Part shown: in pieces, positions 4,259-47,558 of the stretch
Layout: each line of letters opens with the position of its first letter
Numbering within the stretch: position 1 is the first letter of the stretch
Assembly: GCA_000004695.1 (NCBI GenBank)
Contig: CM000150.2
Location: forward strand, 2,816,001 to 2,880,000
Direction of reading: 5' to 3'
Length of the DNA: 64,000 nucleotides
From: Dictyostelium discoideum
Taxonomy: Eukaryota
Made by a program: the position numbers and the translations under genes
Notes under the pieces: generated by a model
Seen by the model: the letters and a program-made list of their open reading frames with translations, nothing else
Told to the model about the DNA's origin: nothing
Databases searched by the model: none

Positions 4259-7200
4259 AATAGTTTTTGATGTTTTTGATTTTGTAAGAATTGTTGAGCT
4301 TGCGAAGCTTGTTGATCATCTAATTCATCATCGTCATGAACTACAGCACTATCATCATCCTCTTCTTCTTCATCTTCTTCATCCTCTTCTTCATCTTCGT
4401 TTGAATCAATTTTATAGATATCTTCAAACTCTGAATCTTCATCATCATCATCGTCATCATCAGAATCATAATTTTCATCATCATCATCATCATCATCATC
4501 AGAATCAGGCATACCTCTTTTCTTTAATTTTGGAATTGGATATTCTCTATTTAAACTATCTTTAAATCTAACATTTGTAGTTTTCTTGGCAGAACCACCA
4601 CTTTTAAGTGCAGATTTTAATGGTGAACCTTGTGGAGTACTACCACTAGCAACTGATAAATTTGGTGAAGATGTTGTAGTTGAAGTTGTAGTTACCATTG
4701 TTGGGAAAATCATATCAAGAGAAGATTTATTTGAGGTTGCAACTTGTTCTTCTTCTTCTTCTTCATATTCTTCATCATATTCTTCATATTCTTGTTCTTT
4801 TATTTGTTTCTGTTGTTGTTGTTGTTGTTGTTTTTGTTGTAGTAATAATTGTGAATGAACTTCCATTTGATGTTGTAAAAGTTCTTGTTGTCTTTGGAAA
4901 TCTAAAAGTTTTTCTTGTTGATCTTCAAATTCTTTTTTAATTCTTTGTTGTTCTTGTAATTCTTTTTCTTGTTGAGCCAATCTTTGTTGAATTAATAATC
5001 TCTCTTGTTGTTCTTCATTTGATTTCTTTGTTAGAATCTCTAAATTTGAAATGGGAGCAGTTGATAAAGTTGATGATAAATATAAGGAATCATTATAAAG
5101 TTTTGGAATTGGTGATGGCATTACAATTGGTTTTTGAATGAACGATTGTGGTGGTACTAAATTAACTTTTGAAATTGATTTTGGTAATAATGGTATATTA
5201 TCTTCTTCACTATTTAAAAATTGTTGTGGTTGTGGTTGTTGTTGTTGTTGTTGTGATTGTGGTTGTTGTTTTGGTTTATCTTGTGATTCATTTGTAATAT
5301 TAAAATGAATTGGTCTTTGAATTAATGGTAATGATTGTTCATAATTTAATAATAAATGATTGATAGTATCATGACCATCGAAAACATCACCATTGACTCT
5401 AGTGGATTGATAGTAACGATTAACTTTACAAGCTTCAGGAATACGACCTCTTTTAATATAATATAAAGAGATTAGAGATGAAGCTTTCATTTTGAAAAGG
5501 AAATGTAAAAATACTTGTTCTTCAATTTCATCAAGAGACATATTTAAAATTAAATCCAATTTCTTTAAATTAAATGTATAATTAAATATTGAAAATAATA
5601 ATCTTTCAATTGAATCGATTGTTAATTGATCTTGTAAACGATTTCTAAAACTACGTTGGAATAAGATTGCCTCTAGAATTGAATGATTTGATAAAAGAAT
5701 TCTAACATATAACTGAGCTTCATCTGGAGTTTGTGGTTGGAAATTAAAACCTTTCATTAAAAGTTGAGCATAATTTTTGAATCCAAAACTATAAAATCTT
5801 GCTAAAATTGGATAAAGATATTTCTTTGTAACTTTTGAAGAATTTAATAATGTAAATGCACTTTTAATATCTTCATCAATTAAATTACTATTATTTTCAC
5901 GATTGGTGGCATCTTCATCATCATCATCATCGTCATCAATATTCATTTGATCTTGTGATTTTAATAAATAACTATCTAATTTCCAAATACCCATAATAAA
6001 ACTATAATAATTACTAGAGATATGGAAAGAACCAAAGAATGATTTTAAAGTTTCCGATTGATGTAAACTCTTTCCATTACTACCATTACCACCATTAAGA
6101 TCAGTTAATTCTAAATCTATTAATAAATAGAATAGTACTGAAATCTTTTTTGTAAATTGTTGAGATGATTCAAAAATTTTAAAGAATGATTTCATAGTTT
6201 GAGAATTATGTGGTGGATAAGAACTCATTATTTGATTACCATCAGTCGTTGTTGTTGTTGTTGTTGTTGTTGTTGATGTCGATGACGATAAATCAATATT
6301 TGAATAGAATAAATCAATTAATAATCTATCCGAAAGATATTGATTAGTTCTACCAATATTACCCATTTCAATTGTTAATTTCTCTTTAATAATTTTTCTC
6401 TTTTGAATTGTATAATTTCTAACTGATTCCATATCATTCAATGTTGATGGTTTAAATAAACCAAAATATAAAGACCATTTTAAAATTTCAATAAATCTTG
6501 CAATATTAATTGCTTGATCAATTTTAATTTTTAAAGTATCTGGTAATAAATTGGAATTTGAATTTAAATTTGAATTTGAATTAGAACCACCACCACCACC
6601 ACCACCATCAATTATCATATCATTTGAATTTAATTTATTTAAATTCTCTTGAATATATCTATCAGCTAATGATTTAAAAATACGAACTAAATCTGTAATT
6701 TTAACATAAACTAATTCTAAAAGTTTTGGTGTATCAGAATTTAATTTACTATAAATTTCAGAGAGACCAAAATTTCTATTTAATGTTTGAAAATGTGACC
6801 AAAACGATTCCAATATTAATTTTGCATTTGATGATTTATAATTTAAAATGTAATCCTTTACAATTGAAATTAAATTATTATTTAATGAAAATATTAATAA
6901 ATCATTTCTTTGTTGTTGTTGATCAGATTTATAGAATGGGAAAATATTTGATTCTACAAATTTAACATAGACTGAATTTAAAAGTGTTGATGATTCAAAT
7001 AAAATTGCACCCTTATTCGATAATTCATATACTAATCTCTCTTTTGGACTTAAATAATCTATATTATCAATAGTTGAAAATGATAATAATTTAAATTTAA
7101 AATTTGGATGATAAATTGTTAAATTTAATTTATTTTCTTCAAAATTTTCATAATTATCATCAAAGTTATCACTACCACTACCACTATTACTACCACTAGT

Positions 7201-8352
7201 TTGATATTGATCTTCTTTACTTAAAAATACTTTACTATTATTATTTTCTAATTGATAAAGTACATTATTTAAAACTGATTGTTGATCAATCCAAATTGAA
7301 TGATAACCATTATTTTTAAAGTTTCCATTCTCATCATCCAATTTAATTGAGTGTAACCAATGTTGTTGAGAATTTGAACTATAATTTATACCATGTCTTT
7401 CTAATAAAAATAAATCAAATAATTTAATTTCAATTTTAATTGTACCATTTTCAATGAATTGATAAATAAATATTGATTTTGATTTTGGTATAATTCCATT
7501 ATTTAATTTTAAATCTTTATTTTGATAAAGATATGACATTAATAAAATTTCACCAAATTGATTAGTTTGACTATTAGTTTGATTAATTTTTGTAATATCA
7601 ATTGGTGTATCAACATTTTGAGTTAATGAAATTAAATTATTAATTGTTTTACTTGAATCTGGTGATAATTGTAAATCAAATTCTAATTTATATAAAATGA
7701 TTGAAATGTTATTATTTGAAGATTTATTATTCTTTGAACCTCTACCAATCCATAGATGACTAACACTTGATGTATCATCATCTTCCAACTCTTGATAGAG
7801 AAAGTTGGTGACTGGTGATTGTTTATTCTCTAAATGACTAACACTTGAATGCAATCCAACCTCTCTAGCTGGTGAACAATAATACAATTTGAAGTTGTTA
7901 CTTGAGAATAACTGAAATGTTCCAATGCTATAGCCAATTGCTATCATTCTTAAACTCTCGATATATTCAATCGATGTAACATCCAATTGAGTAAATTGGT
8001 TGGTTTGTTGTTGTTGTTGTTGTTGTTGCTGTTGCTGTTGTTGTTGTGGATATTGGTGTTGTAATTTACTCTTTAAATTTTGTTGTGTAATACCATTACG
8101 ATCTTCAACTAAATATCCCTCTGATGAATGTTTACCTGCTGGATATTCAAATTTGTAACTATTTCCATTAAATAATTGATCACCACCTAAAATAAAATAT
8201 GGTACTAAATTATTGGTCTTATTATTAAAGAAATGTTTATAATCATAATTTGTTATATCTTGTAATATTAATTGATTCTTTTTTTTTTTAAAAAAAAAAA
8301 AATACAAAATAGATTAAAAAAAATAAAAAATAATTAATATTTGATTTTTTTC

Positions 8353-8392
<40 letters not shown>

Positions 8393-9136
8393 ACTGATGA
8401 TAAAAATTGTTCTCTTAAATTAAAATAAATATCAACTATTATAACTTGACAAGAATTTTGAATACCTAATGCTAATGGAGTTTTAATATTTCTAATTAAA
8501 TCAGCTTGTGCTTTTGAGAATTTAGATTCTCTATATAATTGTTTAATGTATGTTATAGTTGATAATGGTGTTGTATCCAATGTTTTTAATGTGTCACCAG
8601 TTTGAATATCTAAAACTTTTAATGATGTACTATTTCCACCCTTTAATGCTACAACAATAAATATTTGATCTTCGACAATTATTTCACCAACTGCTGTAAC
8701 TGAACACTAAAAATAAAAAAATAAAAAAATAAAAAAAATAAAAAAAAAAGGGGAAAGGGGAGGGGAGGGTTCAATAAAAAATAAATTAGTCGTTAAAAAC
8801 AAAAAAAAAAAAAAAACAAAAAGTTAATATCATTTTATTATTATTTTTAAAAAAAAAAAAAGTAAATATATATATATTTACCTCAATTGAATTTTCAACA
8901 ACAAAACAAAATGTTGTTATTCTTTTACCATTATTTAAATCATAAAAAAATATTTCGTTTTCTTTTGTAAACCAACTATAATTACCATCAGAAGTTATTC
9001 CTGATGGAATTTCTTCATGGTTTATATTTGGTTGTTTATTATTATTATGATGAGTATTTCCATAATTGAAATTATCAATTGGTGGATATAATAATTTTCT
9101 ATTGATTTTAGTTTCCATTGTAAGTGGAAAAGACAT
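2161..9136 (-). CDS. Large (~2,227 aa) low-complexity acidic/poly-Q protein, 3 exons; family not recognised (an ELYS-like layout is a weak hypothesis)
   Basis: A 6,147-nt ORF at 2161..8307 is preceded on the same strand by two coding segments joined through canonical introns. Exon 1 is 9136..8882 (MSFPLTMETKINRK..FVVENSIE, donor GTAAAT). Exon 2 is 8706..8395 (CSVTAVGEIIVEDQIF..NLREQFLSS, donor GTAAGT). Exon 3 is 8277..2161 (NQLILQDITNYDYK..). The phases are consistent (255, 312 and 6117 nt). The N-terminal ~1,000 aa are of ordinary complexity. They are followed by (CAA)n poly-Q, D/E-rich tracts, poly-N and a Lys-rich tail '..KPKKTKKASKK'. The exon-3 acceptor lies in an A-run, so that boundary is uncertain. 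Confidence 0.6.
4161..4258 (-). repeat. (CAA)n microsatellite encoding a ~39-residue poly-Gln tract inside the large gene
   Basis: A perfect (TTG)n run on the plus strand. Similar runs occur at 3520..3590 and 7995..8045. Confidence 0.9.
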
Positions 9137-38973: not shown

Positions 38974-39198
38974 CTCTATTATTTATTTTTTTAAATAGTT
39001 AATAAATTTAGTGTAATTTTCAAAAAAAAGATAGTATTGTTTTTATTGATTGATGAGTTTAATTTATTATTAAGGAGAGCTTTATTGTTATCTCCTTTGC
39101 CTTTTTATTGAAAATGTTATTATTATTTATTTTTATTTTTTTCTTTTTTTGGTTTGGTATATATATAAAAACAAAAAAAAAGACCAGGGATTTTTGAA

Positions 39199-39228
39199 GA
39201 GCTCTAATCAGGATTCGAACCTGTGATC
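39199..39228 (-). promoter_or_regulatory. ex-B box downstream of the minus-strand tRNA-Gln
   Basis: The reverse complement reads 'gatcacaGGTTCGAATCCtgattagagctc', about 23 bp 3' of the tRNA. Confidence 0.5.
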
Positions 39229-39251
39229 AAAATTTGATAGATTTTAAAAAA

Positions 39252-39324
39252 TGGTTCTACTGAGACTCGAACTCAGATTACAGGATTCAAAGTCCTGGGT
39301 GCTAACCAATTACACTATAAAACC
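39252..39324 (-). tRNA. tRNA-Gln (anticodon UUG), inverted copy
   Basis: An exact reverse complement of the tRNA at 34045..34117. Confidence 0.85.
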
Positions 39325-39370
39325 TTTGATATTCCTAATGTAATAAAGTTACTCTATAAAATTAATAGAT

Positions 39371-39638
39371 GAGATCGAAAAAAACAAACAACAACAACAA
39401 TCTCTTTTTTTGATTATTTCATTTTTCATATAAAAAAGACTTAAAAAACAAATAAATAAATAAATAAACTATTTTAAAAAGCCATCTTTTTACTTTATTG
39501 TAATTTATTATTTGTTTCGTTTTGAGAATTTTGCGTAGCAAAATTTTCAAAAAAAAAGCAAAAAATAATCAGATCGAAAAAAACAAACAACAACAACAAT
39601 CTCTTTTTTTGATTATTTCATTTTTCATATAAAAAAGA

Positions 39639-39689
<51 letters not shown>

Positions 39690-41395
39690 GGAACCAAGTT
39701 AATTAGAAAATTTCCAGATTTTTAACTTTTTAAAGAAAAATAAAAAAGATAGAAAGAAAATAAAATGAAAATCACAAACAACACCACAAATATTAAGCAA
39801 CACAAATGCCTACAAAAAATAAGCGAAATTGTGGATAAAACTCAATTAAAAAAAAAACAATTCAAATACGTCATAAACATCAATCACGAACCAGACGATA
39901 AAATAAAAAAAGATTTAGAAAAAAGTTTGGACAAAAAAGATGTTTTAATCAAAAGTAATAATACATTCAAAATTCTCACAGACAGTATTAGTACAGTAAT
40001 CTATTTTGTAAATATGTTTGATGCAGAATTAAAAGGACAATTTATAACCACTATAAGACCAAAAAATATGTATACAGATTTTGATTGGTATAAATCACTC
40101 ACAGAAATAGAATGGGTAATAGAAAATGAAGGATGTAAACTAATTAAATCAGAAATTAAAGGCGAAACTCTAATTATCAAAACAGTGAAAAGAGTCGTAG
40201 AAGAATTTGACACTATCATTGAACTAGACAATCTAACATTAATTGGACACTCCAACAAAGGATGGAGAGATCAAACCTCATTACCAGAAAATCAAGAAGA
40301 AAACAAAAATAAAAAACAATCAGATGAACAACAACCACAATCTACATCAGAACAAATACCAAAACAAGGAAAAAGAACAATCATTATCCCACCAATCACA
40401 TCCTCATCTAATGATAAAACATTTATGGCCCTAGATGATACAGCTCAAAAGGTAATAGAAGCATCACTAGAAAACGTAGATGAACTAACAAGAATAGAGA
40501 ATGAGATCAATACACAATCGATAAACAATCAAGAAATTAAAACAAAATCAGAAAAAAATATAGCAACACCATCTCCATACAATACACCAATAAAACAACA
40601 CGGCGAAACAAAGGGACTAACAACGGAAGAAAAACTTAGAGAGGCAAATGATATCTTCGACTTCACCAGCCCAAACACTGATGCAATAAGAAAAATAGAA
40701 TTCCCACTTTCAATCCCTTCAAATCAATGGTTCTTCTCCTCTCCAATAAAACATATCATGAGTTTCAGCCCAACCTATGGTACACCATCGAAAATTATCG
40801 ATTCACCAAGTAAATTGTTAAACACACCAAAAAAGAAACAACAAGACAAAACAAACAAGACCAACAAAACACCAGTCAAACCAAAATTGGGTGAATATGG
40901 ACAAAAAAGCATAAAAACAAAAATGGATGAAGATATAGACAACTTCAACAAGGAAATTCTAAAACAAATCAATAAATCAAAAAACCCCACAAACACACAA
41001 GACCAACAACACAATGAACAAAGTAAAGATCAGTTAGAAGACAAAATAAACCAGAAACTTCAAAAGGTAGATAAAAATCTACCCCAAATAAAACTATAAA
41101 GAAAAACACAATAAGAATAGGTGTTTGGAACGTCCAAGGATCCAACACCATCCAATCTGCCAGCATAATAAACACCGTTTTAGACAACAACAAGCTGGAC
41201 GCAGCACTTCTAACTGAAACAAATATAAAAACAAATAAAATTTACTCAATAAATCAACAATATAAAAACAAAATAACACACCACGCACCAATTGATAAAA
41301 CAGGACAAGGGGTGTCACAAATCATCATCAACACCCGCAATAGAACTTCCTAAACATCTCAAAAAATACAATAATTCACTCAGTACTTTCTATAA

Positions 41396-41453
<58 letters not shown>

Positions 41454-41776
41454 CAAGTTAATCAGAAAAATAAAAAAGATAGAAAGAAAATAAAATGAAA
41501 ATCACAAACAACACCACAAATATTAAGCAACACAAATGCCTACAAAAAATAAGCGAAATTGTGGATAAAACTCAATTAAAAAAAAAACAATTCAAATACG
41601 TCATAAACATCAATCACGAACCAGACGATAAAATAAAAAAAGATTTAGAAAAAAGTTTGGACAAAAAAGATGTTTTAATCAAAAAGACCCTGTAAAAAAA
41701 AAAAAAAAATAAAATGAGATCTAGCATCTCAAGGAGAAGCAAATAATAATTGCGTTATCCAATTCAAAAAAAAAAA
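39371..41776 (+). mobile_element. TRE5-A non-LTR retrotransposon, ORF2-deleted (TRE5-A.2-like): duplicated A-modules, B-module, full ORF1, ORF2 N-terminal stub, second B-module, C-module, oligo(A); 5' end ~32-47 bp upstream of tRNA-Gln
   Basis: An A-module unit 'agatcgaaaaaaacaaacaacaacaacaatctctttttttgattatttcatttttcatataaaaaagacttaaaaaa' is present twice (39373..39448 and 39573..39650). ORF1 is 39765..41099. An ORF2 start stub (..IRIGVWNVQGSNTIQ..) joins directly to the ORF2-3' segment 'caatagaacttcctaaacatctc..'. A second B-module carries the ORF1 start (41495..41695). The C-module 'agaccctgtaaaa..aaatgagatctagcatctcaaggagaagcaaataataattgcgttatccaattcaaaaaaa' closes the element. A perfect 15-bp target-site duplication 'ATAAAATTAATAGAT' lies at 39356..39370 and 41777..41791. 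Confidence 0.8.
39765..41099 (+). CDS. TRE5-A ORF1 protein (444 aa) inside the retrotransposon
   Basis: An ORF-track ORF. The same N-terminus 'MKITNNTTNIKQHKCLQKISEIVDKTQLKKKQFKYVININHEPDDKIKKDLEKSLDKKDVLIK' recurs in the B-module stubs at 41495 and 33365 (minus). Confidence 0.75.
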   Translation: MKITNNTTNIKQHKCLQKISEIVDKTQLKKKQFKYVININHEPDDKIKKDLEKSLDKKDVLIKSNNTFKILTDSISTVIYFVNMFDAELKGQFITTIRPKNMYTDFDWYKSLTEIEWVIENEGCKLIKSEIKGETLIIKTVKRVVEEFDTIIELDNLTLIGHSNKGWRDQTSLPENQEENKNKKQSDEQQPQSTSEQIPKQGKRTIIIPPITSSSNDKTFMALDDTAQKVIEASLENVDELTRIENEINTQSINNQEIKTKSEKNIATPSPYNTPIKQHGETKGLTTEEKLREANDIFDFTSPNTDAIRKIEFPLSIPSNQWFFSSPIKHIMSFSPTYGTPSKIIDSPSKLLNTPKKKQQDKTNKTNKTPVKPKLGEYGQKSIKTKMDEDIDNFNKEILKQINKSKNPTNTQDQQHNEQSKDQLEDKINQKLQKVDKNLPQIKL

Positions 41777-42082
41777 ATAAAATTAATAGATATTAAATAT
41801 GCATATTACATTACTAATTATAGTTGACACACATTTAAATAATATAATAATAATAATAATAATACTGTCAACTCATTATAAATAATATAAATACTAAAGA
41901 ATAATTTTATAAACAATATTGAATATTATAAATATAAACTAATATTAAATAAAGATAACAAAGTATTATTCAATTATATAATTATTAATTATATATATTT
42001 ATAAAGCTAACAAGCTTTATTACACTAAAAAAATTTACATAAAATTTATTTCTTTTAGAAAAAAAAAAAAACCGGAGCAAAG

Positions 42083-42358
42083 TTATTCAGAAAAGTTAAA
42101 AATCATTATTGGTGGGTCTGGGAAACTCTTGAATATTTTACAATCATCATAGTAAATATTAATTGCCTTGAGATATCCTTCGAAGGTTATCCTGTAAACT
42201 TCTTTCATTTTTTTTTTACATTCTTTTGTACAGAGTTTATTTATCTCGGGGAATCTATCCTGGTCAAATAATTTATCATCGTATAAAAATGGGCCAAGTT
42301 TTTTAAGGTTTTCTATTGAAAAGCGGTCATGTCCGCATCCACCTACTTTCCTCAACAT
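42083..42358 (-). CDS. Small ORF (91 aa: MLRKVGGCGHDRFSIENLKKLGPFLYDDKLFDQDRFPEINKLCTKECKKKMKEVYRITFEGYLKAINIYYDDCKIFKSFPDPPIMIFNFSE) with codon usage atypical for the host
   Basis: The ORF-track ORF at 42083..42436 is trimmed to the ATG at 42358. The part upstream of that ATG is a translated AT-rich repeat. G/C-ending codons (GGA TGC GGA CAT GAC CGC, CTT GGC CCA, GAC CAG, TTC CCC GAG, CTC AAG) are unlike the neighbouring genes. No family was recognised. Confidence 0.35.
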   Translation of the reverse strand: MLRKVGGCGHDRFSIENLKKLGPFLYDDKLFDQDRFPEINKLCTKECKKKMKEVYRITFEGYLKAINIYYDDCKIFKSFPDPPIMIFNFSE

Positions 42359-42645
42359 AATTTTTGTTGTGTTTGAAGTGTAAAAATAAAAAAATAAAAA
42401 ATAAAAAAATAAAAAATAAAAAATAAAATTAAACACAGAAAGGTGCTACTATTTTGGGAACACTTAAAAATTTAAGTTTTTATTCATTTAAATAAAAAAT
42501 AAATTAAAATAAAAAATAAACACACAAAATTTATTCCTATTTTTGGTAACAATAAAAATGAAAAATCAAAAAAAAAAATTATTTATATAAAATTAGTCAA
42601 TAAAAAAAGTATTTAAAAAATAAATAGTTTTAAACAAATATAAAT

Positions 42646-42681
<36 letters not shown>

Positions 42682-43070
42682 TATTATTCATTTTAAAGAT
42701 ATGATTTATCTTTTTTTTTATTATTCATTTTAAATATATGATTTTTTTTAATTGAAAATCAAAAATCTACTAATTTATATTCCTTTATTGGACATAAACA
42801 AATATTTATTTAATATTTAAATTTTTTTTTTTTTTTTTTTTTTTTTTATTAATAAAAATGGAAATGTGGATCTAATTAAAATTGCAATGGTGTTGCTTTG
42901 AAACAATTAAAAAAAAATTCATTTTTTTTTTTTTTTCACTAATCTTTATATTATTATTTATAATAATAATAAAAAAAAAATAATAATAATAAAATATAAA
43001 TATTAAATAAATTATATATTATTTTTATTATTATTATAAAAAAAAAAAATAATAAATAAAAAATAAAAAA

Positions 43071-43931
43071 ATGGATGCACTTTCATCACAACAACCATCA
43101 ATTTATTATAATTTTCTTCAAATTACAAAATCCAATATGGAACTTTATCCGGTACCAAAAAATATTGATTCTTGTGAAGCATATGAACCATTTAGAAAAA
43201 CAGTATCAAATGATTTTTGGTATGCTTCAGCATGTCAATTCATTGTTAGATTGGTTAAACTTTCAAAGAATATGAAATTTAATAAAATCAATGAAACTAA
43301 TATTAATCAAATTTTATTTGATCATACAACACATGGATTACATTTAGCAACTGCAACAACTGATACTACCAATGATAATTCAGAGAAATTAGAGATTCAA
43401 CAAGTTGTAAATATCTTTAATGTTTTAAAAGATATGTATAAAAAGAAGAACCAAATTTTAACAGTTGATCAAATTCTATTATGGCATTCTGAAATTTTAG
43501 TTGGACCAAAAAGATTTCAAGATTTTAGATCAACATGGGCATTCTCTGAAGATATAATATTTGTTGAACCAAAAGATGTTAAATCTAAACTTAGCCATTT
43601 AGTAAAAGAATTTAATTCTCATCATCAAGATTTTCTATTAACTGGTAAAACTCCAATCTATAGTGTTATCTCTTGGTTCTTACATTCATTCACTTTAATT
43701 CATCCTTTTGAACATGCCAATGGTAGAATGGCATTACTATTGGTTCAATTTATTTTATTCTCTTTTGAATTTCCTTGTCCTGTACCATTTTTTATTAATA
43801 AATATGAATATCAATCAATATTATTTGACAATGATAAAAATTTTAAAGATAAAAAAGATACACTAACAAATTTAATAATTGAAAGTTCAATTAGAATTTA
43901 TAGAAATTCTAAAGCTTTACAATTCCTTTAA
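43071..43931 (+). CDS. Fic (Fido) domain protein, 286 aa
   Basis: A single ORF. The Fic motif is 'HPFEHANGRMALLL', matching HPFx[DE]GNGR with G changed to A. The flanking helical regions are of ordinary complexity. Confidence 0.6.
   Translation: MDALSSQQPSIYYNFLQITKSNMELYPVPKNIDSCEAYEPFRKTVSNDFWYASACQFIVRLVKLSKNMKFNKINETNINQILFDHTTHGLHLATATTDTTNDNSEKLEIQQVVNIFNVLKDMYKKKNQILTVDQILLWHSEILVGPKRFQDFRSTWAFSEDIIFVEPKDVKSKLSHLVKEFNSHHQDFLLTGKTPIYSVISWFLHSFTLIHPFEHANGRMALLLVQFILFSFEFPCPVPFFINKYEYQSILFDNDKNFKDKKDTLTNLIIESSIRIYRNSKALQFL

Positions 43932-44256: not shown

Positions 44257-47558
<3,302 letters not shown>

What the first reader, a model, noticed from the sequence alone, without database searches (positions are those of the whole stretch)
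43071..43931. Fic-domain protein with a variant core motif HPFEHANGR
- Eukaryotes usually encode a single ER-resident FICD/HYPE with HPFxDGNGR.
- Here a compact 286-aa ORF carries HPFEHANGR, where the second Gly is replaced by Ala and His follows Glu.
- The motif Asn and Arg that position the nucleotide are kept.
- Whether it has an inhibitory (S/T)xxxE(G/N) helix is unclear from reading. It could be an AMPylase-type or phosphocholine/de-AMPylation-type enzyme.
Basis: partly seen in the sequence, partly recalled or inferred. Interest (0 to 1): 0.55.

Follow-up and report, generated by a model that had tools for sequence, protein, structure and literature searches.

The report
Divergent Fic-fold protein in Dictyostelium
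This is a real, selectively maintained gene for a small soluble Fic-fold protein found only in Dictyostelium discoideum and its closest relatives, whose active site has lost the usual self-inhibition switch and carries an unusual metal-binding residue, so it probably does not work like the standard human or bacterial AMP-adding enzymes, though what it does is untested.

Summary
The ORF (43071..43931 +, 286 aa) is D. discoideum AX4 DDB_G0269484, annotated "hypothetical / Fido domain-containing". It is a genuine Fic protein: Pfam Fic scores 38.6 bits (cutoff 24), and the AlphaFold model matches only Fic structures, with FICD best.

The full motif is HPFEHANGRMAL against canonical HxFx(D/E)GNGRxxR:
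- His215 replaces the metal-binding Asp/Glu.
- Ala216 replaces the first Gly, not the second.
- The class II inhibitory helix is present, but its Glu is Ser65 and its Ser/Thr is Leu61.

Ala216 is specific to D. discoideum. His215, Leu222 and Ser65 are conserved in syntenic orthologues of D. citrinum, D. dimigraforme and D. firmibasis. dN/dS is 0.18-0.43, and the active-site stretch is the most conserved part.

Dictyostelids also carry canonical paralogues. His at the Asp/Glu position recurs in otherwise canonical bacterial Fic proteins, so the combination is what is unusual.

Most likely it is a constitutively de-repressed Fic-type transferase with altered metal or donor handling. A ligand-binding pseudoenzyme is the main rival. 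It is a new variant of a known kind, of moderate interest.

The parts
43071..43931 (+). Single-exon CDS of DDB_G0269484 (286 aa plus stop), a Fido-domain protein
   Evidence: ORF. 100% identical to D. discoideum AX4 DDB_G0269484 / UniRef Q55DX8. Orthologous single-exon ORFs of 283-286 aa lie in syntenic loci L001, L002 and L004. dN/dS is 0.18-0.43.
43071..43178 (+). N-terminal residues 1-36, predicted disordered; no signal peptide or TM
   Evidence: pLDDT is below 50 for residues 1-36. Maximum Kyte-Doolittle 9-residue hydropathy in the N-terminal 30 residues is 0.59.
43209..43268 (+). Degenerate class II inhibitory helix (residues 47-66). The (S/T)xxxE(G/N) columns read L61-V-K-L-S65-K, and Ser65 (nt 43263-43265) replaces the inhibitory Glu
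   Evidence: Predicted helix at residues 47-62. Ungapped alignment from the conserved F49-W50 anchor to SNKIEN of D. purpureum 149905 and to SNALEN / SNKLEN of relatives. The family profile's 'snklen' aligns to FICD TVAIEG. No [ST]xxxE[GN] is present in any of the 4 orthologues.
43458..43757 (+). Pfam Fic (PF02661) core, residues 130-229
   Evidence: E 1.9e-9, 38.6 bits, profile positions 2-93 of 93.
43527..43568 (+). Beta-hairpin 'flap' (target dock), residues 153-166, with strands at 158-159 and 162-163. R153 is invariant and F164 nearly invariant across the family
   Evidence: DSSP on the model. Conservation in A2. The role of the flap is taken from PMC3667792.
43701..43736 (+). Fic signature motif, residues 211-222: H211-P-F-E-H215-A216-N217-G218-R219-M-A-L222. 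Catalytic His, Asn, second Gly and R(1) are kept. D/E is replaced by His215 (43713-43715), the first Gly by Ala216 (43716-43718), and R(2) by Leu222 (43734-43736)
   Evidence: Sequence. Motif census. Orthologues have HPFEHGNGRMAL. This lies within the most conserved 25-residue window of the protein (203-227, 24 of 25 invariant, permutation p=0.003).

Best explanation
DDB_G0269484 is a soluble, probably cytosolic, lineage-specific paralogue of a dictyostelid family of short class II Fic proteins. The family's catalytic domain is most similar to that of FICD.

The paralogue keeps the Fido fold, the beta-hairpin target dock, the catalytic His211, the anion-nest residues Asn217 and Gly218, and the beta-phosphate Arg219. 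Both partners of the autoinhibitory salt bridge have been replaced by uncharged residues: the inhibitory Glu by Ser65, and motif R(2) by Leu222. The metal-binding acid has been replaced by His215.

The most likely mechanism is a constitutively de-repressed Fic-type transferase. His211 would activate a target hydroxyl for attack on the alpha-phosphate of a nucleotide or diphosphate donor held by the nest and Arg219. The catalytic metal would be ligated through His215. There would be no gamma-phosphate clamp, so donor or metal preference probably differs from a canonical Mg-ATP AMPylase. It cannot act as a FICD/EfFIC-type deAMPylase.

Shown: gene identity, fold, residue substitutions, their conservation, purifying selection, and the paralogy. 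Inferred: that the protein is catalytically active, the role of His215 as a metal ligand, and the de-repressed state. Unknown: the donor and the target.
For: Fic membership and fold.

Substitutions and their conservation in 4 species.

Functional constraint:
- Four intact syntenic ORFs with pairwise dN/dS 0.18-0.43.
- Coding sequence is 80-88% identical between species, against 56-65% for the upstream 400 bp.
- The active-site stretch 203-227 is the most conserved 25-residue window in the protein (24 of 25 invariant, p=0.003). That fits a used active site better than a relic.

His at the D/E position is not a sign of decay in itself. A scan of prokaryotic genomes for HPFxHGNGR gave at least 120 matches. 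Sixty are genuine Fic contexts; 55 of those 60 keep R(2), and 21 of the 30 with a long upstream ORF keep a class II inhibitory motif.

Loss of R(2) alone does not abolish AMP transfer. FICD R374H and R374C still AMPylate and lose only autoinhibition and deAMPylation (PMC12974487, PMC12409994). The Glu-R(2) salt bridge and its competition with the gamma-phosphate are established (PMC3667792), so losing both partners together is coherent.

No TM or signal peptide.
Against: No biochemical, expression or genetic data exist for this protein (no papers found).

The motif acid is reported as critical for AMPylation and essential for deAMPylation in EfFIC (E115A; PMC6408439). No one has shown that His can substitute for it.

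The four orthologues are closely related (69-84% identity), so conservation of catalytic residues is weak evidence of catalysis.

The model has moderate confidence (mean pLDDT 73.6) and coordinates could not be inspected, so the orientation of His215, Ser65 and Leu222 is inferred from alignment only.

De-repressed Fic enzymes are typically toxic. Stable retention in the cytosol would therefore argue for low activity or a narrow target.
Confidence: 0.45

Rival explanations
1. Pseudoenzyme. The protein keeps the Fido fold and perhaps ligand or target binding, but no longer catalyses transfer. It would act as a binding, scaffolding or regulatory protein, for example by sequestering a target or a nucleotide.
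For: Three functionally central positions are all changed and stay changed across the clade: the metal ligand D/E, the gamma-phosphate Arg R(2), and the regulatory Glu. The motif acid is reported as critical for both AMPylation and deAMPylation (PMC6408439). The clade sits on a long stem branch relative to canonical dictyostelid paralogues. [quoted passage not shown]
Against: Catalytic His211, Asn217, Gly218 and Arg219 are invariant, and the active-site loop is the most conserved segment. His at the D/E position recurs in otherwise fully canonical bacterial Fic proteins, which suggests it is functional. Loss of R(2) is compatible with AMPylation in FICD.
Confidence: 0.3
2. AnkX-like enzyme. 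It would bind a nucleoside-diphosphate-X donor such as CDP-choline in inverted orientation and transfer the phospho-X group (phosphocholination-type).
For: AnkX has HxFxDANGRxxV, with Ala at position 6 and an aliphatic residue at R(2) (PMC3667792). D. discoideum has HxFxHANGRxxL. Lacking a gamma-phosphate clamp fits a diphosphate donor. FICD's active site can bind a diphosphate ligand without using R(2).
Against: Ala216 is specific to D. discoideum; orthologues have Gly. AnkX keeps the motif Asp. AnkX needs an extra CMP-binding domain for inverted binding (PMC4177925), whereas this 286-aa protein matches only the Fic family in Pfam and models as a single Fido domain plus a disordered N-terminus. 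The profile matches AnkX only at E about 4e-4, against 2e-26 for FICD.
Confidence: 0.08
3. An ordinary regulated AMPylase/deAMPylase working like FICD or EfFIC.
For: The best structural and profile matches are FICD. The layout is class II.
Against: The inhibitory/deAMPylating Glu, R(2) and the motif acid are all absent. There is no TM anchor and no TPR match.
Confidence: 0.04
4. A decaying gene or annotation artefact with no function.
For: Narrow taxonomic range (4 species plus D. cf. discoideum) and a degenerate motif.
Against: Intact ORFs of conserved length sit in syntenic positions in all sampled genomes. dN/dS is 0.18-0.43, and the coding sequence is much better conserved than the flanks.
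Confidence: 0.03

Closest known systems
FICD/HYPE (human; C. elegans FIC-1), metazoan class II Fic AMPylase/deAMPylase of BiP
   Same: Fido fold. FICD gives the best Foldseek hits (E about 1e-6, TM about 0.6-0.65) and the best profile hit (E 2e-26, covering the inhibitory helix through the core). The layout is class II, with an N-terminal inhibitory-helix position. Catalytic His, Asn, second Gly and R(1) are kept.
   Different: No TM anchor and no TPR match. Inhibitory Glu is Ser65, motif Asp is His215, and R(2) is Leu222. Sequence identity is only about 16%. The protein is probably cytosolic. It therefore lacks the residues FICD uses for deAMPylation and autoinhibition.
Canonical dictyostelid Fido paralogues (D. 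purpureum DICPUDRAFT_149905, D. citrinum ACTFIU_007183, T. lacteum DLAC_00370, D. discoideum DDB_G0283145)
   Same: These are the closest sequence relatives (29-37% identity, E 1e-14 to 5e-23). They are of the same short, TM-less type where the N-terminus is known (the T. lacteum and D. discoideum gene models are N-terminally short). They share the FW...helix...Fic core layout.
   Different: They keep HPFxDGNGRxxR. D. purpureum and the D. discoideum locus keep SNKIEN. They lie at different, non-syntenic loci. They form a separate clade (bootstrap 96), and the variant clade sits on a long branch.
BT_2513 of Bacteroides thetaiotaomicron (PDB 3cuc), a Fic-domain protein of unknown function
   Same: Best single-sequence PDB hit (E 2e-6). 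It has the lowest rmsd among the top structural hits (4.7-4.8 A, TMt 0.68) and is of similar size (291 aa).
   Different: It has the canonical HPFEDGNGRIAR motif. It is bacterial.
AnkX (Legionella phosphocholine transferase), motif HxFxDANGRxxV
   Same: Ala at motif position 6 (D. discoideum only) and an aliphatic residue in place of R(2).
   Different: AnkX keeps Asp and has an additional CMP-binding domain and ankyrin repeats. The profile match is weak. Ala is not conserved in the orthologues.
FICD disease and engineered variants R374H/R374C and E234G
   Same: These represent the same two functional lesions, loss of R(2) or loss of the inhibitory Glu. They break the autoinhibitory salt bridge and give constitutive AMPylation without deAMPylation.
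   Different: They are single mutations in an otherwise canonical enzyme that keeps Asp367. Here both lesions are natural, combined, and accompanied by Asp to His.
Bacterial Fic proteins with HPFxHGNGRxxR
   Same: His at the metal-ligand position. At least 60 genuine examples occur across diverse phyla.
   Different: They retain R(2) in 55 of 60 cases and usually retain the inhibitory motif (21 of the 30 that could be assessed). To my knowledge they are uncharacterised.

Membership tests
Fic/Fido superfamily (Pfam PF02661) | Significant match to the Fic HMM above the gathering threshold | tested here: met
   38.6 bits against a cutoff of 24, E 1.9e-9, covering profile positions 2-93 of 93.
Fic/Fido superfamily (Pfam PF02661) | All-helical Fido fold with the motif on the loop and N-cap between two core helices, plus a beta-hairpin flap | tested here: met
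   AF2 model pTM 0.75. Helices 196-210 and 217-231 flank the motif, with a hairpin at 158-163. All 45 Foldseek PDB hits at E<=0.001 are Fic proteins.
Fic/Fido superfamily (Pfam PF02661) | Catalytic His of the motif | tested here: met
   His211 is invariant in the orthologues and nearly invariant across the family alignment.
Canonical AMPylating Fic (HxFx(D/E)GNGRxxR) | Acidic D/E at motif position 5 (Mg2+ ligand) | tested here: not met
   His215 in all 4 orthologues. Among the hits, only the query itself has His at this position; adding its three orthologues makes 4 His out of 109 motifs tabulated.
Canonical AMPylating Fic (HxFx(D/E)GNGRxxR) | G-N-G-R anion nest | tested here: inconclusive
   A-N-G-R in D. 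discoideum and G-N-G-R in the orthologues. AnkX functions with A-N-G-R.
Canonical AMPylating Fic (HxFx(D/E)GNGRxxR) | Second Arg, R(2), which binds the gamma-phosphate | tested here: not met
   Leu222 in all orthologues. 100 of 109 motifs tabulated have Arg.
Class II Fic (intramolecular N-terminal inhibitory helix) | (S/T)xxxE(G/N) motif N-terminal to the core | tested here: not met
   No match anywhere in the protein or its orthologues. The aligned columns read L-V-K-L-S-K. A helix is present at the homologous position, so the protein is class II-derived.
FICD/HYPE orthologue | N-terminal TM anchor and TPR repeats preceding the Fic domain | tested here: not met
   No hydrophobic N-terminus. 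Fic is the only Pfam family matched at E<=10. The protein is 286 aa in total.
FICD/HYPE orthologue | BiP AMPylation/deAMPylation activity | not testable with these tools
   This needs biochemistry. The residues required for deAMPylation (Glu and the motif acid) are absent.
Doc kinases (HxFx(D/N)(A/G)NKR) | Lys at motif position 8 | tested here: not met
   Gly218. The Doc criterion is taken from PMC4177925.
AnkX-type phosphocholine transferase (HxFxDANGRxxV) | Motif with Asp, Ala at position 6 and a non-Arg at position 12 | tested here: not met
   His instead of Asp. Ala is present only in D. discoideum. Leu at position 12 fits.
AnkX-type phosphocholine transferase (HxFxDANGRxxV) | Accessory CMP-binding domain enabling inverted donor binding | tested here: not met
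   Fic is the only Pfam family matched. The model shows a single Fido domain after a disordered 36-residue N-terminus. The profile matches AnkX at only E about 4e-4.

The most novel reading that the evidence does not exclude
A eukaryotic, cytosolic Fic enzyme that has evolved a new catalytic regime. The metal would be His-ligated (for example a Mn, Co or Zn preference, or metal-independent chemistry). There would be no gamma-phosphate clamp and no glutamate brake. The enzyme would transfer a group other than AMP from a non-ATP diphosphate donor onto a Dictyostelium-specific target. That would be a further Fic activity class, in a genetically tractable model organism.
Probability: 0.15. Interest if true: 0.7.

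Novelty: new variant of a known kind. Interest (0 to 1): 0.4.

Why it matters
Fic enzymes are usually held in check by a glutamate that pairs with the second motif arginine. In human FICD, mutations that break this pair (E234G, R374H/C) lock the enzyme into AMPylation, and the R374 variants are linked to disease.

Here, purifying selection has kept a protein in which both partners are gone and the metal ligand is His. If it is active, it shows how a cell tolerates or uses an unbraked Fic enzyme. It would also test whether His can replace the motif acid, which bears on the at least 60 bacterial HPFxHGNGR proteins as well. If it is inactive, it is a clean example of a Fic pseudoenzyme retained in a eukaryote.

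D. discoideum genetics makes either outcome directly testable. The practical reach is modest, because the gene is confined to a few closely related species.

Tried and rejected
1. Enrichment of clade-specific fixed substitutions at the active site. Seven of the 12 lie in residues 195-227. Restricted to eligible conserved columns the contrast is 7 of 17 against 5 of 18 (Fisher p=0.49). I do not claim enrichment.

2. Uniqueness of the Asp to His change. This is rejected, because it recurs in bacterial Fic proteins. My rough chance expectation for the DNA pattern was a few tens. About half of the 120 sampled matches were indeed non-Fic contexts.

3. D. purpureum 149905 as the positional orthologue. 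This is rejected. Its neighbours differ (XPO4, DnaJ, F-box/RhoGAP), it has introns, and it groups with the canonical paralogues.

4. Signal peptide or TM segment. None found. The only hydrophobic stretch (220-238, KD 1.82) is the buried helix after the motif.

5. The profile search in the word-indexed database did not recover the dictyostelid paralogues and returned only canonical Fic proteins.

6. The afdb50 fold library was unavailable. The AnkX structure paper PMC3655470 is not held. The AX4 paralogue P0009 had no contig on record, so another strain's copy was used.

7. Literature searches by gene ID, UniProt ID and 'Fido domain' plus Dictyostelium found nothing.

8. Residue-level geometry of His215, Ser65 and Leu222 in the model could not be examined, because no coordinates are exposed.

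9. I ran no further search on finding the D. purpureum syntenic region.

Full report
**Identity and observation.** The window is AT-rich (GC about 0.12-0.30) and comes from Dictyostelium discoideum. The ORF at 43071..43931 (+), 286 aa, is 100% identical to AX4 DDB_G0269484 (UniRef Q55DX8) on a 4.92-Mb contig. It is annotated only as "hypothetical / Fido domain-containing protein". Pfam Fic PF02661 matches residues 130-229 at 38.6 bits (cutoff 24, E 1.9e-9). Against PDB sequences the best single-sequence hit is the Bacteroides Fic protein 3cuc (E 2e-6), followed by C. elegans FIC-1 and human FICD. The nucleotide sequence shows a clean single exon with typical A-rich flanks. The peptide HPFEHANGR is at residues 211-219.

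**What the motif really looks like.** Aligned to 3cuc (HPFEDGNGRIAR) and to the consensus HxFx(D/E)GNGRxxR (PMC3667792), the full motif is H211-P-F-E-H215-A216-N217-G218-R219-M-A-L222. There are three deviations, not two:
- The metal-binding Asp/Glu is His215.
- The first Gly is Ala216.
- The second Arg, R(2), is Leu222.

The catalytic His, the Asn, the second Gly and R(1) are retained.

**Orthologues, selection and synteny.** The word-indexed search found only three orthologues: D. citrinum (84% identity), D. dimigraforme (78%) and D. firmibasis (69%). All three have HPFEHGNGRMAL. His215 and Leu222 are therefore conserved across the clade. Ala216 is a D. discoideum-lineage change, present in all three D. 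discoideum / D. cf. discoideum assemblies sampled.

The orthologues are single-exon ORFs of 283-286 aa in collinear loci: the Fic gene, then a gene of about 1,100-1,200 aa, then Cyt-b5 on the opposite strand. Nei-Gojobori dN/dS is 0.18-0.43 for all six pairs. The coding sequence is 80-88% identical between species, against 56-65% for the upstream 400 bp. Within the clade, the most conserved 25-residue window is 203-227, the active-site helix-loop-helix. There, 24 of 25 positions are invariant and the only variable one is position 216 (permutation p=0.003). This is a maintained gene, not a relic.

**Family context.** An exhaustive phmmer search of 1.84 billion cluster representatives gave 106 hits at E<=1e-3, but only 7 at E<=1e-10. 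Apart from the query itself, none of these hits has His at motif position 5. Across the 109 motifs tabulated (these hits plus the three orthologues), Gly at position 6 occurs in 104 and Arg at position 12 in 100.

The nearest relatives are other dictyostelid Fido proteins with canonical motifs:
- D. purpureum DICPUDRAFT_149905 (HPFLDGNGRISR)
- D. citrinum ACTFIU_007183
- T. lacteum DLAC_00370
- D. discoideum DDB_G0283145 (HPFIDGNGRMGR)

These lie at other, non-syntenic loci. In a neighbour-joining tree the variant clade (bootstrap 100) sits on a long stem branch. It lies beside a 94%-supported group that holds the canonical dictyostelid clade (96%) and four unnamed sequences from SRA assemblies. 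At least one of those unnamed sequences lies on a eukaryote-like contig.

Khater and Mohanty (PMC4454073, supplement) had already placed Dictyostelium Fic proteins in a eukaryotic clade "E2" that is intermixed with bacterial sequences. The premise that eukaryotes have a single ER-resident FICD therefore does not describe dictyostelids.

**Inhibitory helix.** D. purpureum 149905 has SNKIEN 139 residues upstream of its motif. Relatives have SNALEN, SNKLEN or SNQLEG at the same place, so the family is class II. The family profile aligns to human FICD at E 2e-26, from the inhibitory helix to the core, with the profile's "snklen" on FICD's TVAIEG.

In DDB_G0269484 the homologous columns, counted without gaps from the conserved F49-W50 anchor, are L61-V-K-L-S65-K. 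No [ST]xxxE[GN] occurs anywhere in the four orthologues. The model places a helix at residues 47-62. The helix therefore survives, but its Ser/Thr and its Glu are gone. Ser65 is invariant in the clade.

**Structure.** An AlphaFold2 model built on the 15-sequence alignment has mean pLDDT 73.6 and pTM 0.75. Residues 1-36 are disordered. The core is all-helical, with a beta-hairpin at 158-163 (the flap) and the motif between helices 196-210 and 217-231. Foldseek against the PDB returned only Fic proteins among its 45 hits at E<=0.001. FICD came first (E about 1e-6, TM 0.60-0.66), then BT_2513 (rmsd 4.7-4.8 A), then Fic proteins from M. marinum, Coxiella and others. There is no N-terminal hydrophobic segment. 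The single hydrophobic stretch (220-238) is the buried helix after the motif. Fic is the only Pfam family matched. The protein is therefore soluble and probably cytosolic, unlike FICD.

**Interpreting the substitutions.** The established roles are as follows.
- The motif His is the general base.
- The D/E binds the Mg2+ that bridges the alpha and beta phosphates.
- Asn and R(1) bind the alpha and beta phosphates.
- R(2) salt-bridges the gamma-phosphate in the competent state, or the inhibitory Glu in the repressed state (PMC3667792).
- In EfFIC, the motif acid and the Glu are both essential for deAMPylation, and the acid is critical for AMPylation (PMC6408439).
- FICD R374H and R374C, which lack R(2), still AMPylate and lose autoinhibition and deAMPylation, mirroring E234G (PMC12974487, PMC12409994).

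The coupled replacement of both salt-bridge partners (Glu to Ser65, Arg to Leu222) therefore predicts an unbraked enzyme with no FICD-type deAMPylase activity. The decisive unknown is His215.

To ask whether His at this position signals decay, I scanned one genome from each of 185,579 prokaryotic species for a back-translated HPFxHGNGR. Sixty of the 120 matches are genuine Fic contexts by HMM. Of those, 55 keep R(2), and 21 of the 30 with enough upstream ORF keep a class II inhibitory motif. His is thus a recurrent natural alternative in otherwise fully canonical, glutamate-regulated Fic proteins, which suggests it is functional, presumably as a metal ligand. What is unusual in the Dictyostelium clade is the combination of His with loss of R(2) and loss of the Glu. 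Among the 60 bacterial examples only one clean case also lacks R(2) (L075, HPFVHGNGRTGF).

**Verdict on mechanism.** The most likely reading (about 0.45) is an active, constitutively de-repressed Fic-type transferase that uses His211, with altered metal and/or donor handling. The main rival (about 0.3) is a ligand- or target-binding pseudoenzyme.

An AnkX-like phosphocholine transferase is a minor possibility. The resemblance (HxFxDANGRxxV) depends on Ala216, which the orthologues lack. AnkX keeps the Asp and needs an extra CMP-binding domain. The profile similarity to AnkX is weak. Doc-type kinase chemistry is excluded by Gly218. A FICD-like regulated AMPylase/deAMPylase, and a dead gene, are both unlikely.

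**Novelty.** The gene is in the databases but uncharacterised, and I found no paper mentioning it. It is a new variant of a known kind: a Fic-fold protein with a natural, conserved triple alteration of the regulatory and catalytic centre, in a tractable eukaryote. Interest is moderate (0.4). The variant is real and selectively maintained. Against that, its range is narrow, one of its three hallmark changes is common in bacteria, and nothing yet shows a new activity.

Noticed in passing
L006:7667-8438 (D. discoideum GCA_054883475.1 CM142510.1; locus of DDB_G0283145): The canonical D. discoideum Fido paralogue is annotated as only 143/145 aa. An upstream ORF (7667..7963, a different frame) encodes the missing N-terminal part, with an intact inhibitory motif YQSNKIENINHT. 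It overlaps the Fic-core ORF (7923..8438), and no intron is visible. This points to a frameshift near 7890-7900, which is reflected in the gene models of two assemblies. The locus is either a split or pseudogenised gene, or an uncorrected error. If the frameshift is real, DDB_G0269484 is the only full-length Fido protein in D. discoideum.
   Followed up: partly
window 39734-39954 and 41464-41684: A perfect 221-nt direct repeat, 1,730 nt apart. It duplicates the 5' end and the first 63 codons of the gene at 39765..41099, which produces a truncated 66-aa ORF copy at 41495..41695.
   Followed up: partly
window ~39000-42950: About 4 kb lies between the VWA-domain gene and the Fic gene with essentially no blastn counterpart in the D. 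firmibasis, D. dimigraforme or D. citrinum loci; the only match is one short inverted segment at its 5' edge (window about 39,380-39,650) in D. citrinum. The stretch contains the Lys/Asn/Gln-rich gene at 39765..41099, its partial duplicate, and a 117-aa minus-strand ORF. It looks like a lineage-specific insertion or expansion.
   Followed up: no
window 44257-46023 and onward (+): The downstream gene has extreme homopolymer tracts, with long poly-Asn, poly-Thr and poly-Gln runs, and a RING-like CPICFDYF...C..GH motif near the end of the first ORF. It is conserved in position in all three orthologous loci as a gene of about 1,100-1,200 aa.
   Followed up: no
P0007 (JGI metagenome, 271 aa): A close relative of the canonical dictyostelid paralogues, sister to the T. 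lacteum protein in the tree. It has Gln in place of the catalytic His (IQPFSDGNGRISR), while the rest of the motif is canonical.
   Followed up: no
P0006 (D. citrinum ACTFIU_007183), residues ~47-52: This canonical-motif paralogue has a degenerate inhibitory motif, SNNIKI, with Glu replaced by Lys. The D. discoideum and D. purpureum counterparts have SNKIEN. Loss of the inhibitory Glu has therefore happened more than once in this small family.
   Followed up: no
L075 (Solirubrobacterales MAG, CAVZVK010000010.1), match at 4692-4717 (-): A bacterial Fic protein with HPFVHGNGRTGF, that is His at the metal-ligand position and Phe instead of R(2). It is the only clean prokaryotic example in the sample that combines two of the Dictyostelium deviations.
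   Followed up: no
P0010-P0013, P0015, P0025, P0041, P0063 (metagenomic hits): Several relatives carry two Fic motifs in one polypeptide (tandem Fic domains, 457-937 aa). Some second copies have Asn or other residues at the acid position.
   Followed up: no
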